NCBI GenBank assembly: GCA_038868995.1
Contig: JAWCRZ010000005.1
Location: 4,632-68,631 of the forward strand
DNA from: Candidatus Woesearchaeota archaeon
Lineage (GTDB): Archaea; Nanobdellota; Nanobdellia; Woesearchaeales; ARS49
DNA: 64,000 bases
Reading direction: 5' to 3'
Positions 38,009 through 43,828 of this stretch are shown here, piece by piece. The notes beneath the pieces are model-generated. The model was not told the DNA's origin, ran no database searches, and saw nothing but the letters and a program-made list of their open reading frames with translations. The stretch's first letter is position 1; each line of letters opens with the position of its first letter. A program made the position numbers and the translations under genes.

Positions 38009-41000
38009 TTGAAAAAACTACGCGTTCCATTGTTGCCGAAAAAAGGGGGGCTTGGGGTACTTGCGCTCTTTTTAACTCTGCTATTATCGTGTCAATCTGA
38101 AATTGTTGCAAAACCAACAGTTGTTGAACAGACAATTAACGAAGCAGTAGCTCAGCTGGCTGACAACAGTGTAGCAAGCATAACGCCGGCGCCAAAAACT
38201 ACAGACGCTGTATCTCTTGATGACACGAAGCCGAAAATAGACCCCGAGCTGGTAAAAGAACTCAAAGAGCTCAAAAGGCAGAGAAAACACAAGCGCGTAC
38301 AAGTTCTTGTAGAATTAAAAGACGAGAAGGCATTGGAAGCAGTCAAACAAGCAGGTGGCACTGTCAGGCAAAACTTTGAAATAGGCAATGTCGCGGTTGT
38401 AGAAGTCCAGTCGGATAAAATTGAGGAAATTTCCAGCGCAGCAGGAGTTGAGCACATTTCAACAGAAAAGGAATATGTTGCGCTTCTCACGGACAGAATA
38501 CAGGCGTTTTCCATTGACACAATCGCGTGGGAGAATAACATCACGGGAAAAGACGTCAAAATCGCAATACTTGACACTGGTGTTGGTCCTCACAATTCAA
38601 TAAATGTTGCAAAGGCTTCCAGTTTTGTCAGCGGGGAGGACACAGCAGACCAGAACGGACATGGAACGCACGTGGCAGGCATAGCGCAAGGCGTTGCGAA
38701 AGATGCAGCAATCTATAACGCAAAAGTCCTCAATAAAAACGGCGCAGGCACGACATCCCAGATTATAGCAGGAATAAACTGGGCAGTAGAACAGAATGTT
38801 GACATAATATCAATGAGCTTTGGAGGAATGTTCACAGAACTTGATGGACCATTAGCGTCTGCTGTCAAGGAGGCAATGCAACACGGTGTTATCTTTGTCG
38901 CAGCTGCAGGCAACTGCAAACAAGGATGCGGAGGGTTCTATGGAGTTACAACGCCTGGCAATGTTAAAGAGGTGATAACTGTTGGCGCTGTTGATGACAA
39001 TAATGTTGTTACAAGCTTCTCATCCGGAGACACTTTTGACGGATACATCAAGCCGGACATAACCGCACCTGGAGTATCAATCACTTCAGCATGGCTAAAC
39101 AACGGCCAATCAACCAAAAGCGGCACATCAATGAGCACGCCATTTGTGGCAGGAGTCATAGCATTGCTGCTGGAAAAAGAGCCAGGATTGACGAATGAGA
39201 AGGTGAAGCAGAAACTGGAAGAAACTGCGACAGATGCTGGAAGTGCTGGAAAGGATACGAGTTATGGAAGTGGCATAATCAATCTCACTGTTTTGTTTGA
39301 TGCAACAATCATTCCACCAACAAACAACGCTTCTGAAGAATCAAATACTGCCGTCGACATCGCAGCGCTTCCGTCAGACAGCGGGATAACTTTAACACCA
39401 ATCACGGTCGACTGTCCTGAGAATCTGGCATACAGTCCTGCATTGAATATCACAATGCAAGAATTCCTAACAATATACGAATATTGCACGATTCCAAAAG
39501 ACGACACAAATGAAACCCCGCAAAACCTAAACCCGATAGTATTCTTTGAACCGGTTGAGTTTCTTGATCCAAAAAGCTTGCCCAAAAAAGGAATATTGGA
39601 TGCGCAATACAAAGCAGAACTGCAATCAAAGGCGCTCAGCTTGCAATCAGTAAATTTCACAGAGCTCGCACAAGCACAAAGCATAGAGGAATTGCAAGCA
39701 CAAGCCAACGAAGAAATAGATTACGATGACATTTACACAAAAAGCCCCAGCACTGCCGACGACGGCGTTGCCTGGATGGACGGAGGAACGACCAACAAAA
39801 ACGTGACGCTCGAGGCCTCGAATTTCCAAGTAATCTGCTATGACTGGTGCGCAACAAGCACCTTTGAACCAGACCACTGCTTCTCAACAGCATCAACTTC
39901 TGCGTTGCGCCAGCAGGATTTCAATGCGTGCAGCCAAAACAGCAGTTTTGTCAGCTCTGTCTGCGCAGCAGGCAAATGCTCAATCGGAACGAAAGAAGGC
40001 GAGCATCATATCGCCACCCAATACATAGAAAAATGCACTGTCAAAGCACGGTATTACAAAAACTGCGCAACACCAAGCTTCACATACAGCAGCGTGTTCA
40101 GCGCCGCGCACTACACCGTAAAGCCGCGCCAATATGTATGCAACAGCCCTGCAGGCACCTATAACGACAAAGGACTTTACGACAATTCACCAACACTATG
40201 GTATGATTTCATAGCAGGCATAACGTGCCCATCCGGCAAAGGATGCGACATTGCAAAAGATGAAAACAATGCAGATTTCGGCCCGTCAGGAACAATCACG
40301 CCTGCACCTCCCTGCAGCAAGCTTGACAGGCAGATCTGCGCATCAAGTTCAGAATGCATGACATCAAGCCACTGCACTTCAGGGCACTGCTGTCCGCAAG
40401 GAAAAATATGGACAGGAAGCCAATGCGCAGGCTCTTCTGCCTGTGACAATGACGGATTGTGTGAGTCGGGTGAAACAAAGGCAAATTGCCCGAATGACTG
40501 CAACAAGCCAAACGGTGCAGTATGCACAAATAACAACCAATGCGCAAGCGATTATTGCAATGGGCAAACAGGAACGTGCCAGGCACCACCACTTGGATGC
40601 AACGATGCCGACCAAGACGGCTACGGCAGCCCCGGAAGCGCAAGCTGTTCGGCCGGCTCTCCATTGACCGACTGCGACAACAATAATCCATTCATAAACC
40701 CTGGAGCGATAGAGCAATGCAACGGAATTGATGACGACTGCGATGGTCAAACAGACGAAGGAGGTGTTTGCCCACCACAGCCAACTTGCAATGACCAAGA
40801 CCAGGACGGCTACGGCAACCCTGCAACCGGTTGCCCGCAAACACTGACTGACTGCGATGACACCAAGCCAAATATTCATCCAAATGCGCCAGAAACATGC
40901 GACGGATTGGATAATGACTGCGATGATGCAATAGACGAAGCCAATGTCTGCTGTGGAAATCAGCAATGCGACACTGGACTCGGCGAAACCCCCCAGAGTT

Positions 41001-43828: not shown

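What the first reader, a model, noticed from the sequence alone, without database searches (positions are those of the whole stretch)
38009..43828. 1939-aa multidomain surface protein combining an S8 protease, Cys-rich repeats, membrane segments and a toxin-like end
Reading along the translation gives, in order: a signal or anchor helix, then an inhibitor-I9-like propeptide region. Next comes the subtilase triad (D in LDTGVG, H in HGTHVAG, S in GTSMSTPF). About 600 aa of Cys-rich modules follow, including three copies of the D-rich motif DCD(D/N)..P.I.P.A.E.C(D/N)G.D(D/N)DCD. After about 500 aa of unknown fold come two hydrophobic stretches (WYFIEVGITVLSFASIACNTIGI and MLCGVSSTMLVVFYVPSGP). 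A roughly 300-aa C-terminal region ends in an ADP-ribosyltransferase-like module. This layout resembles polymorphic-toxin or effector-delivery proteins and is unusual for an archaeon of this type. It may act at the contact with a host or competitor cell.
Basis: partly seen in the sequence, partly recalled or inferred. Interest (0 to 1): 0.7.

Follow-up and report, generated by a model that had tools for sequence, protein, structure and literature searches.

The report
Archaeal swappable-toxin surface protein with antidote
This giant surface protein of a tiny symbiotic archaeon (Woesearchaeota, DPANN) has a conserved protease-bearing body and an exchangeable toxin tip, here an ADP-ribosylating enzyme, followed by a matching candidate antidote gene, which suggests these archaea use a bacterial-style swappable-toxin weapon built on a different chassis.

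Summary
ORF 38009-43828 encodes a 1939-aa protein. In order it has a signal/anchor, a weak prodomain, an intact S8 subtilase, Cys-rich modules with two (not three) MopE-type repeats, and a conserved 500-aa module. Then come a hydrophobic segment, a helical pre-toxin region and a C-terminal R-S-E ADP-ribosyltransferase. The transferase passes Pfam's Scabin-like cut-off, and its model best matches the Rhs toxin TreX.

The polymorphic-toxin reading is supported and can be extended. The body is shared by about 55 loci in GTDB species genomes, nearly all DPANN archaea. Their C-terminal tails fall into at least 19 unrelated classes. The closest relative is 72-88% identical in the module but about 20% in the tail. 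A more distant relative (about 40% body identity) is 50-66% identical in the tail.

The next gene (43825-44631, ATGA overlap) co-varies with the tail across 49 loci (odds ratio 136, p about 1e-28). It is the likely immunity gene. Related loci keep displaced toxin remnants and an orphan immunity gene.

Delivery route, membrane topology, target and toxicity are inferred, not shown. The closest described relatives in kind are the SPEARE proteins of Nanohaloarchaeota. I class this as a new variant of a known kind.

The parts
37998..38004 (+). Shine-Dalgarno-like GGGAGGT 4 nt upstream of the TTG start
   Evidence: Read directly from the sequence.
38009..43828 (+). Toxin gene encoding the 1939-aa S8-MopE-module-hydrophobic-pretoxin-ART protein
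   Evidence: ORF list and translation. Identical protein P0001 is present in an NCBI MAG and a Logan assembly.
38009..38113 (+). Signal peptide or N-terminal anchor (aa 1-35), with lipobox-like LLSC at aa 25-28
   Evidence: Hydropathy peak of 1.94 at aa 6-35. An N-terminal hydrophobic helix is present in nearly all homologs.
38279..38437 (+). Putative subtilase prodomain (aa 91-143), weak
   Evidence: Fervidolysin_NPro-like E 0.004-0.04 and CspB_prodomain E 0.024, all below cut-off. PF26036 Peptidase_inhib_put is recorded for homologs.
38546..39274 (+). Peptidase S8 (subtilase) domain, aa 180-422, with triad D189/H218/S374
   Evidence: Pfam PF00082, E 6.2e-55, full-length profile match. Triad motifs located.
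39299..40558 (+). First variable region (aa ~430-850), including part of the Cys-rich stretch. Candidate target-recognition region (inferred).
   Evidence: Only 8 of 43 family members align here. No nucleotide homology to the syntenic L002 locus across 39237-40441. No Pfam hit.
40670..40939 (+). Two MopE-type D/C-rich repeats (aa 888-917 and 948-977)
   Evidence: Pfam Cu-binding_MopE, E 2.2e-15, 2 stretches. Motif scan.
41306..42808 (+). Family-defining conserved module (aa 1100-1600): Cys-rich beta region, beta-sandwich and an alpha/beta domain, with invariant LGDD..P and NPWD motifs
   Evidence: Alignment A2 of 33 sequences. AlphaFold2 model with mean pLDDT 87.5. Foldseek against PDB gives only weak Ig-like, S-layer and BcsB matches. 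Present in 55 genome loci.
42794..43009 (+). Hydrophobic region (aa 1596-1667): two moderately hydrophobic stretches flanking a conserved Cys..Cys loop
   Evidence: Hydropathy. Invariant Cys pair in alignment A1. Not confidently modelled, pLDDT below 30.
43010..43336 (+). Helical pre-toxin region (aa ~1668-1776), with junction motifs EDEYAIAEGT (aa 1726-1735) and LLRRIGRY just before the variable domain
   Evidence: AlphaFold2 predicts helices at pLDDT 70-87. The motifs are conserved across carriers of unrelated tails. P0011 switches from the P0003 type to the P0005 type at the first motif.
43337..43825 (+). ADP-ribosyltransferase toxin domain (aa ~1777-1939), with R1790, S1834-T-T and E1893/E1894
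   Evidence: Pfam Scabin-like, 31.6 bits against a cut-off of 27, plus a weak NarE hit. PDB sequence hit to TreX. Foldseek top hits are TreX/TreTu, pertussis S1 and cholera A1, at probability 1.0. The Arg and S/T motif are aligned and conserved.
43825..44631 (+). Candidate cognate immunity gene (268 aa, with no signal peptide or TM). Its ATG overlaps the toxin TGA as ATGA.
   Evidence: Overlap read from the sequence. Matches the downstream genes of other Scabin-type loci: L001 at E 1e-14, L006_d4 at E 3e-28, L033 at 39% identity. No BLAST match to the gene at the same position in the syntenic, closest locus L002. No Pfam, NCBIfam or PDB match.
44624..48598 (+). Conserved partner gene: 1324-aa surface protein with a signal peptide and C-terminal TM anchor, always placed after the toxin/immunity cassette
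   Evidence: 41-67% identical orthologs occupy the same position in L002, L005, L006 and L007. Hydropathy. Weak PKD hit.
43030..44707 (+). Exchanged cassette, defined by loss of nucleotide homology with the syntenic L002 locus
   Evidence: Colinear blastn HSPs stop at 43029 and resume at 44708. The flanking regions are 69-81% identical.

Best explanation
The gene encodes one member of a DPANN-wide family of giant, cell-surface polymorphic toxins. Together with the next gene it forms a toxin-immunity cassette.

Shown:
- A Sec-type N-terminus leads into a Cys-rich (5% Cys) body. The body carries an intact S8 subtilase, Ca/metal-binding MopE repeats and a conserved 500-aa module.
- A hydrophobic, Gly/Ala-rich segment and a helical pre-toxin region with conserved junction motifs separate this body from a Cys-free C-terminal domain.
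- Here that domain is an R-S-E-clade ADP-ribosyltransferase. In relatives it is replaced by unrelated domains: other ARTs, kinase-like domains, HExxH domains and many of unknown type.
- The translationally coupled downstream gene changes together with the tail.

Inferred:
- The body is displayed outside the cell and binds a neighbouring cell, either the host of this episymbiont or a competitor, through its variable middle region.
- The subtilase either opens the target's protein surface layer or cleaves the protein itself to release the tip.
- The hydrophobic and pre-toxin segment carries the Cys-free tip across a membrane.
- The ART then uses NAD+ to ADP-ribosylate an essential cytoplasmic target. 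Protein targets such as FtsZ or EF-Tu, or nucleic acid, are known for the nearest relatives.
- The cytosolic 268-aa product of 43825-44631 blocks the ART in the producer and its kin.
- New tips and antidotes are acquired by recombination at the conserved junction motifs.
For: Domains:
- S8 at E 6e-55, MopE x2, Scabin-like above cut-off.
- The ART model best matches the Rhs toxins TreX/TreTu, then pertussis and cholera A subunits, at probability 1.0.
- The Arg and S-T-T motifs are conserved.

Cassette swap:
- P0002 is 72-88% identical at aa 1300-1600 but 18-28% after aa 1750. P0003 is about 40% identical in the body and 50-66% in the ART.
- Nucleotide homology with the syntenic L002 locus is lost exactly over 43030-44707.

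Immunity co-variation:
- Window d1 matches the downstream genes of L001, L006_d4 and L033. It does not match L002's d1, even though the neighbouring genes are 63-92% identical.
- Across 49 loci, tail similarity and next-gene similarity are associated with odds ratio 136 (Fisher p 1.4e-28). Bodies are similar in 1170 of 1176 pairs.

Displacement relics in related loci:
- L005 keeps a 30-aa remnant that is 93% identical to the end of the P0003-type ART.
- L006 keeps an orphan immunity gene 77% identical to L001 d1, sitting behind a new tail and its immunity gene.

Compartment signature: Cys is 5.1% in bodies and 0.24% in tails (n=53, p 2e-10).

Distribution: 55 loci in GTDB species genomes, nearly all DPANN, with several MAGs carrying two paralogs.

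Operon coupling: ATGA overlap between toxin and immunity gene.
Against: - No experiment shows toxicity, neutralisation or delivery.
- Topology is unresolved. The hydrophobic region is only moderately hydrophobic (1.4-1.7) and varies from one to about three helix-lengths among homologs. It was not modelled with confidence.
- A weak positive-inside trend (p 0.013) would place the tail in the producer's own cytoplasm. This is the published reading for SPEARE proteins and leaves export of the tip unexplained.
- The canonical [QE]xE motif of R-S-E ARTs is not evident. Only a conserved Glu, E1893 or E1894, aligns.
- Locus pairs in the association test are not phylogenetically independent, so the p-value is only indicative.
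- No orphan cassettes occur in this window itself.
- Most alternative tails have no recognisable toxin family.
Confidence: 0.75

Rival explanations
1. SPEARE-type resident enzyme. The protein is a permanent membrane-anchored surface protein. Its protease and adhesion body attaches to and opens the host. Its C-terminal enzymatic domain stays in the symbiont's own cytoplasm, where it acts on imported host material or regulates the symbiont. The downstream protein is an inhibitor or regulator of that resident enzyme and does not protect against delivered toxin.
For: - Same gross layout as SPEARE proteins: serine protease, adhesion domains, a TM near the C-terminus and a C-terminal enzyme read as cytoplasmic. 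The authors noted similar sequences in Woesearchaeota and Aenigmarchaeota.
- A weak positive-inside trend after the hydrophobic region.
- The tail is Cys-free, as expected for a cytoplasmic domain.
- No recognisable secretion or injection apparatus lies next to the gene.
Against: - A resident housekeeping or processing enzyme would not be expected to be replaced by unrelated catalytic classes (ARTs, kinase-like, HExxH, unknown) among close relatives, each with its own matched partner gene.
- It also would not be expected to leave displaced remnants and orphan partner genes.
- ARTs of this clade with a dedicated downstream inhibitor are known as delivered toxins, for example TreX/TriX and Tre1.
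Confidence: 0.15
2. Self-directed defence (abortive-infection-like) sensor. The extracellular body senses virus attachment or envelope damage. The S8 protease or the hydrophobic segment transmits the signal. The variable C-terminal effector then kills or arrests the producer itself, and the downstream gene acts as an antitoxin.
For: - Variable effector tips (ART, nuclease-like, kinase-like, protease-like) paired with inhibitor genes are also typical of defence systems.
- There is a weak NCBIfam hit to the S8 anti-phage peptidase IteS, E 3e-6 and far below cut-off.
Against: - The IteS hit is explained by the shared S8 fold alone (25.8 bits against a cut-off of 900).
- A 1600-aa disulfide-rich adhesin-like exterior and a conserved surface-anchored partner fit cell-cell contact better than virus sensing.
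- The nearest ART structures are interbacterial toxins.
- PADLOC was not searched, so a match to known defence families was not excluded directly.
Confidence: 0.05
3. An ordinary secreted nutritional subtilase with a long anchoring stalk. On this view the C-terminal 'ART' is a spurious or decayed match with no toxin role.
For: NCBI annotates the protein simply as an S8 family serine peptidase. Many archaeal S8 proteases carry long C-terminal adhesion or anchor regions, as seen in the CARDB/PKD-bearing hits.
Against: - The ART passes Pfam's curated cut-off, keeps the Arg and S-T-T motifs, and folds as an ART.
- Between distant relatives, the tail is better conserved than the body.
- The tail has a co-varying partner gene.
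Confidence: 0.03

Closest known systems
Bacterial polymorphic toxin systems (CdiA/CdiI contact-dependent inhibition, Rhs/YD-repeat toxins, WapA, MafB, LXG; Zhang et al. 2012, cited)
   Same: - A large conserved N-terminal delivery body and conserved junction motifs precede a C-terminal toxin that is swapped among relatives.
- A cognate immunity gene lies immediately downstream and co-varies with the toxin.
- Displaced toxin remnants and orphan immunity genes occur in related loci.
- Some genomes carry several paralogs.
- There is a second variable region in mid-protein, as with the receptor-binding region of CdiA (own knowledge).
Supporting calls: 15, 42, 63, 71, 72, 74, 83.
   Different: - No Rhs/YD, haemagglutinin, LXG or PAAR elements, and no type V, VI or VII secretion genes nearby.
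- The host is a single-membrane DPANN archaeon.
- The body is built from an S8 subtilase, MopE repeats and a family-specific module with no known fold match.
- A hydrophobic segment sits directly before the pre-toxin region.
SPEARE proteins of Nanohaloarchaeota (Hamm et al. 2019, PMC6642349)
   Same: - A DPANN episymbiont.
- A giant protein with an N-terminal serine protease and an extracellular adhesion region.
- A transmembrane segment close to the C-terminus, followed by a C-terminal enzymatic domain.
- The authors reported similar sequences in Woesearchaeota and Aenigmarchaeota.
   Different: - SPEARE proteins are 3,300-8,500 aa and carry laminin-G and BC-toxin-like regions.
- Their C-terminal restriction-endonuclease-like region is described as the most conserved part and as acting inside the symbiont.
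- No polymorphism or immunity gene was reported for them.
- Sequence homology to this family could not be tested here. No Nanohaloarchaeota appeared among the 55 module-bearing loci.
T6SS Rhs ADP-ribosyltransferase toxins TreX/Tre1/TreTu with Tri immunity proteins (PDB 8S2M, 8S2N, 9GCO)
   Same: - The best sequence and fold match for the C-terminal domain: phmmer E 7.6e-4; Foldseek E 6.6e-7, TM 0.67 on the target, 25% identity.
- The same R-S/T-E clade.
- A C-terminal position on a polymorphic carrier, with a dedicated downstream inhibitor.
   Different: - The carrier and delivery machine are unrelated.
- The immunity candidate here shows no detectable similarity to any solved protein.
- The target (FtsZ, EF-Tu or RNA in those toxins) is unknown here.
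Scabin/pierisin/ScARP-type guanine- or DNA-targeting ARTs (Pfam PF22596 Scabin-like)
   Same: The Pfam family reached above the gathering score (31.6 against 27). Pierisin-1 is among the fold hits.
   Different: - The Q-x-E signature of the DNA-targeting members (own knowledge) is not seen. The aligned segment reads K-N-E-E.
- This particular subtype is rare: 14 representatives at E<=1e-3 among 1.84 billion.

Membership tests
Peptidase S8 (subtilase) | Profile match over the whole catalytic domain | tested here: met
   PF00082, E 6.2e-55, profile positions 1-288 of 288, aa 180-422.
Peptidase S8 (subtilase) | Asp-His-Ser catalytic triad in canonical motifs | tested here: met
   D189 (LDTGVG), H218 (HGTHVAG) and S374 (GTSMSTPF) are all present. 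Activity was not tested.
R-S-E clade ADP-ribosyltransferase (Scabin-like, PF22596) | Profile score above the curated cut-off | tested here: met
   31.6 bits against a gathering score of 27, aa 1801-1928. The same family hits relatives P0003, P0121, P0123 and P0126.
R-S-E clade ADP-ribosyltransferase (Scabin-like, PF22596) | ART split beta-sheet fold | tested here: met
   The AlphaFold2 model has moderate confidence (pLDDT 65-87 in parts of the domain). Foldseek returns 46 PDB hits at E<=1e-3 and the 50 best listed are all ART toxins, led by TreX at TM 0.67.
R-S-E clade ADP-ribosyltransferase (Scabin-like, PF22596) | Catalytic Arg, Ser-Thr-Ser/Thr motif and [QE]-x-Glu | tested here: inconclusive
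   R1790 is invariant and S1834-T-T is aligned with the S/T motif in 6 ART tails. A conserved Glu (E1893 or E1894, in KNEEII) aligns with the ExE of P0002, but no canonical [QE]xE is present.
Polymorphic toxin system | Conserved N-terminal body with C-terminal domains that differ among close relatives | tested here: met
   There are 19 tail clusters among 49 loci, while bodies are similar in 1170 of 1176 pairs.
Polymorphic toxin system | Cognate immunity gene immediately downstream that co-varies with the toxin domain | tested here: met
   ATGA overlap. Swap against the syntenic L002 locus. Association across 49 loci with odds ratio 136. The immunity function itself was not tested.
Polymorphic toxin system | Conserved demarcation motif at the body/toxin junction | tested here: met
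   Motifs ..[DE][DE]x..A.[KR]G[TS][ED].. and h-h-[KR]-x-h-G are conserved before unrelated tails. A recombination breakpoint lies at the first motif in P0011.
Polymorphic toxin system | Orphan or displaced toxin/immunity modules | tested here: met
   Seen in related loci L005 (remnant) and L006 (orphan immunity gene). None is present in this window.
Polymorphic toxin system | Toxicity to a target cell, delivery into it, and protection by the immunity protein | not testable with these tools
   This requires expression, competition and binding experiments.
SPEARE proteins (Nanohaloarchaeota) | Serine protease, adhesion domains, a TM near the C-terminus and a C-terminal enzymatic domain | tested here: met
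   The architecture matches the description in PMC6642349. The C-terminal domain here is an ART, not a nuclease.
SPEARE proteins (Nanohaloarchaeota) | Sequence homology to NAR1_1133 / AQV86_04780, including the conserved restriction-endonuclease-like C-terminus | not testable with these tools
   SPEARE sequences could not be fetched. No Nanohaloarchaeota were found among the 55 loci carrying the module. The window protein has no nuclease tail.

The most novel reading that the evidence does not exclude
This family is a delivery system native to archaea. On this reading a self-contained surface protein (protease head, variable recognition region, conserved module, hydrophobic and pre-toxin translocation segment) lets DPANN episymbionts place interchangeable enzymes, here an ADP-ribosyltransferase, into the cytoplasm of their host or rival cells. 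It would do so without any bacterial-type secretion machine. The SPEARE proteins would then be large members of the same functional class, and their C-terminal 'cytoplasmic' nuclease would in fact be a delivered effector. That would make toxin or effector injection a general part of how DPANN archaea exploit or compete for hosts.
Probability: 0.35. Interest if true: 0.85.

Novelty: new variant of a known kind. Interest (0 to 1): 0.72.

Why it matters
DPANN archaea make up a large share of archaeal diversity and live attached to other cells. Almost nothing is known about the molecules they use at that contact.

Polymorphic toxin systems have been predicted in archaea but not experimentally characterised (statement in PMC8416519).

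This locus gives a concrete and widespread DPANN family to work with:
- a recognisable toxin, an R-S-E ART whose closest solved relatives hit FtsZ or EF-Tu;
- a candidate antidote gene;
- clear recombination junctions;
- many tail domains of unknown type that could be new toxins.

It also suggests a testable reinterpretation of the SPEARE proteins. The toxin/immunity pair is small enough to test directly by heterologous expression.

Tried and rejected
- Clan-CD (caspase/gingipain-like) releasing protease inside the conserved module. This was suggested by 'LGDDYVVPHYRR' and 'NKAFNCMPF'. I rejected it because the His is not conserved (Q, Y, M, S or N in homologs) and the high-confidence model has no caspase-like fold match.
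- Homolog search with the 169-aa ART tail returned nothing, not even the query's own protein. The search with aa 980-1800 returned only two new proteins. These are limits of the word index, not evidence of absence. The exhaustive search and the genome scan replaced them.
- A loose regular expression for PD-(D/E)xK nuclease motifs in alternative tails matched too freely to count as evidence. The nuclease reading of some tails (P0004, P0024, P0043 and similar) rests only on inspection by eye.
- Pfam on alternative tails gave mostly nothing. The hits were weak: PI3/PI4-kinase-like, SprT-like, and Enterotoxin_a for P0002.
- No orphan toxin or immunity cassettes were found in the window by tblastn of 37 tails.
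- Makarova et al. 2019 (mBio, archaeal polymorphic toxins) could not be read because it is not held. I therefore cannot exclude that the family was noted there.
- Pfam, NCBIfam and PDB searches of the immunity candidate found nothing.
- PADLOC was not searched.
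Full report
**1. The observation**

ORF 38009-43828 (+) exists as described. It has a TTG start, encodes 1939 aa, and has a GGGAGGT ribosome-binding-like motif 4 nt upstream. The same protein, 100% identical, is on record from an NCBI MAG as 'S8 family serine peptidase [Candidatus Woesearchaeota archaeon]' and from an independent Logan assembly. 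It is therefore not an artefact of this window.

Pfam finds the following:
- Peptidase_S8 at aa 180-422 (E 6e-55).
- Cu-binding_MopE, two stretches (E 2e-15).
- Scabin-like ADP-ribosyltransferase at aa 1801-1928 (31.6 bits; curated cut-off 27).
- A weak NarE hit.
- A sub-threshold subtilase prodomain hit.

Two details need correcting. There are two complete D-rich DCD...DCD repeats (aa 888-917 and 948-977), not three. The prodomain assignment is weak.

**2. The C-terminal domain is an ART**

- A phmmer search of PDB sequences with the last 238 aa gives the Xenorhabdus Rhs toxin TreX as best hit (E 7.6e-4), aligned across the Arg...S-T-T region.
- An AlphaFold2 model of aa 1547-1939 has mean pLDDT 58. 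The pre-toxin helices score 70-87, parts of the ART 65-87, and the hydrophobic region below 30.
- Foldseek against PDB with that model returns 46 hits at E<=1e-3, and the 50 best listed are all ART toxins. TreX/TreTu come first (E 6.6e-7, TM 0.67 on the target), followed by pertussis S1, cholera/LT A1, EcPltA, CARDS, pierisin-1 and MTX.
- In an alignment of six ART-type tails, the catalytic Arg (R1790) is invariant and the S/T motif (S1834-T-T) is aligned. A conserved Glu (E1893/E1894) lines up with the E-S-E of P0002, but a canonical [QE]xE is not evident.
- TreX and Tre1 modify FtsZ, TreTu modifies EF-Tu, and other members modify RNA (PMC13617354). The target here cannot be inferred.
- This ART subtype is rare: 14 representatives at E<=1e-3 among 1.84 billion. 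It mostly sits at the C-terminus of carriers of varied length, two of which are further S8 proteins of 1458 and 2825 aa.

**3. The family and its variable tip**

A homolog search returned dozens of 1,600-2,600-aa proteins from Woesearchaeota, Nanoarchaeia, Aenigmarchaeota and unnamed archaea.

- BLASTP mapping shows two conserved blocks: the S8 domain (aa ~100-420) and a module at aa ~1150-1600. Two regions rarely align: aa ~430-850 (8 of 43 members) and aa ~1780-1939 (6-10 of 43).
- The closest relative, P0002, is 72-88% identical at aa 1300-1600 but 18-28% after aa 1750. P0003 is about 40% identical in the body and 50-66% in the ART.
- P0002's tail is a different ART: Enterotoxin_a, 24.5 bits against a cut-off of 21. 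P0005 has a weak Scabin/pertussis-like hit (below cut-off) and P0011 carries the same tail type (62% identical). P0009 and P0046 give weak PI3/PI4-kinase-like hits. One HExxH tail gives a weak SprT-like hit. Most tails have no Pfam match.
- The tails are preceded by a conserved helical pre-toxin region with two motifs..[DE][DE]x..A.[KR]G[TS][ED].. (window EDEYAIAEGT, aa 1726-1735) and h-h-[KR]-x-h-G (LLRRIGRY).
- P0011 is nearly identical to P0003 up to the first motif, then switches to the P0005-type tail. This marks a recombination junction.

**4. The immunity gene**

The window is syntenic with the P0002 locus (L002). Shared neighbours are GrpE-DnaK-DnaJ, a multi-TM 216-aa protein (80% identical), HTH_45 (92%), the toxin gene, a 1324/1335-aa protein (63-67%), a 216/213-aa protein (75%) and an M50 peptidase.

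Only the gene directly after the toxin shows no similarity between the two loci. Instead, the window's version matches the genes that follow other Scabin-type tails:
- L001 (P0003 locus): E 1e-14.
- L006_d4: 29% identity over the full length, E 3e-28.
- L033: 39% identity, although the toxin bodies are only 30% identical.

The alignment places its start at ATG 43825, which overlaps the toxin's TGA as ATGA. The 268-aa product has no signal peptide or TM segment and matches no known family or solved structure.

At the DNA level, homology with L002 is continuous at 69-81% except for three stretches: 36867-37986, 39237-40441 and 43030-44707. The last stretch covers the post-hydrophobic tail, the immunity gene and the first 80 nt of the next gene.

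**5. Generality**

A scan of one genome per GTDB species with the module alignment found 55 loci. Nearly all are from DPANN lineages: Woesearchaeota, Nanoarchaeota/Nanoarchaeia, Aenigmatarchaeota and Iainarchaeum/Diapherotrites. Some records carry generic 'uncultured Methanosarcinales' titles, and one is a short 'Pseudomonadota' contig. Several MAGs contribute two loci.

In 49 complete loci a tightly coupled downstream ORF of about 90-360 aa is almost always present. Over all 1176 locus pairs, similarity of the last 170 aa and similarity of the next ORF break down as follows:

| Category | Pairs |
|---|---|
| Tail and next ORF both similar | 23 |
| Tail only | 27 |
| Next ORF only | 7 |
| Neither | 1119 |

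The odds ratio is 136 and Fisher p is 1.4e-28. Bodies are similar in 1170 pairs. The pairs are not phylogenetically independent, so the p-value is only indicative. The pattern is nevertheless the reverse of what shared ancestry alone would give.

Related loci keep relics of replacement:
- L005 has a 30-aa ORF that is 93% identical to the end of the P0003-type ART, placed just after its current immunity gene.
- L006 keeps an orphan immunity gene 77% identical to L001's, sitting behind a new tail and its own immunity gene.

**6. The rest of the protein**

The module at aa 1100-1600 models with high confidence (pLDDT 87.5) as a Cys-rich beta region, a beta-sandwich and an alpha/beta domain. PDB fold matches are only weak Ig-like, S-layer or BcsB-type hits, so its role is unknown. 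The idea of a caspase-like releasing protease was rejected.

Cysteine makes up 5.1% of bodies and 0.24% of tails (n=53, p 2e-10). This fits a disulfide-rich exterior and a tip that works in, or must cross into, a reducing cytoplasm.

The hydrophobic region varies from about one to three helix-lengths and contains an invariant Cys pair. A weak positive-inside trend (p 0.013) mildly favours an N-out/C-in topology in the producer.

The conserved downstream partner (44624-48598) has a signal peptide and a strong C-terminal TM anchor.

**7. Interpretation**

The best-supported reading is a polymorphic toxin-immunity system on a DPANN-specific chassis, armed here with an ART.

The following steps are inferred, not shown:
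- Surface display of the body and contact with a target cell.
- Recognition through the variable middle region.
- A role for the S8 domain in breaching a surface layer or in self-processing.
- Membrane passage by way of the hydrophobic and pre-toxin segment.
- ADP-ribosylation of a cytoplasmic target.

The main rival is the published SPEARE reading, in which the C-terminal enzyme stays in the symbiont's cytoplasm (PMC6642349). It explains the topology hint. It does not explain the exchange of unrelated tips with matched partner genes, or the displaced relics. Defence-sensor and plain-protease readings are less likely.

**8. Novelty**

In the held literature I found no description of this family as a polymorphic toxin.

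- Archaeal polymorphic toxins have been predicted in general but not characterised. The key paper, Makarova et al. 2019, could not be read.
- SPEARE proteins are the closest described analog.

I rate this a new variant of a known kind. The logic (swappable toxin plus immunity gene) is familiar. The carrier architecture, the lineage and most of the toxin tips are not.

Noticed in passing
L007:11427-13213 (P0004 locus): A roughly 1.3-kb tandem duplication covers the toxin's last 202 codons, the 155-aa downstream gene and the first 76 codons of the big partner gene. It creates a chimeric 271-aa ORF in which the partner's signal peptide is fused to the toxin tip, and a second, 100% identical 155-aa gene. 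It could be a real duplication or an assembly artefact.
   Followed up: partly
L005:12973-13065 and L006:12810-14958: These are relics of cassette replacement. L005 has a 30-aa ORF 93% identical to the end of the P0003-type ART. L006 has an orphan immunity gene (273 aa), 77% identical to L001's, behind two small ORFs. One of those ORFs starts with 27 aa of the same immunity gene.
   Followed up: yes
window 44624-48598: A 1324-aa protein with a signal peptide and a strong C-terminal TM anchor always follows the toxin/immunity cassette in related loci (41-67% identity). It has only a weak PKD hit and a sub-threshold match to a region of a myxosortase-dependent M36 peptidase. It may be a functional partner, for example in surface display or docking.
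   Followed up: partly
window 35945-36864: A multi-TM 218-aa protein and an 88-aa HTH_45 protein lie just upstream of the toxin gene. The same pair is linked to the toxin gene in L001, L002, L006, L007 and L010, in either orientation (33-92% identity). It may be a regulator/sensor pair for the locus.
   Followed up: partly
window 39237-40441 (aa ~410-811 of the toxin): This is a second hypervariable region in mid-protein. It has no nucleotide homology to the otherwise syntenic L002 locus and aligns in only 8 of 43 family members. It recalls the variable receptor-binding region of CdiA.
   Followed up: partly
window 36869-37828 (-): A 318-aa protein with an AbrB/MazE-type domain sits between HTH_45 and the toxin gene. 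The syntenic L002 locus has an unrelated 184-aa gene at this position, so this is another non-conserved insert.
   Followed up: no
window 24149-29887: A second giant ORF (1912 aa) has Big_9, cadherin-like, He_PIG and PKD domains. It is another large surface adhesin in the same window. It has no S8 domain, and no toxin tail was detected by tblastn.
   Followed up: no
L009, L014, L015, L020, L026 and others; L037: Many TPA-assembled contigs carrying this DPANN family are titled 'uncultured Methanosarcinales archaeon', and one 3.5-kb contig is titled 'Pseudomonadota bacterium'. The labels probably reflect generic naming or mis-binning, not true hosts.
   Followed up: no
tails of L016, L020, L021, L022, L036, L043, L055, L060: A recurrent alternative tip carries a conserved 'HE[YFLI][AS]HAK[IF]'-type HExxH motif (weak SprT-like Pfam hit for L016). 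It is probably a metallopeptidase-type toxin class that is not in Pfam.
   Followed up: partly
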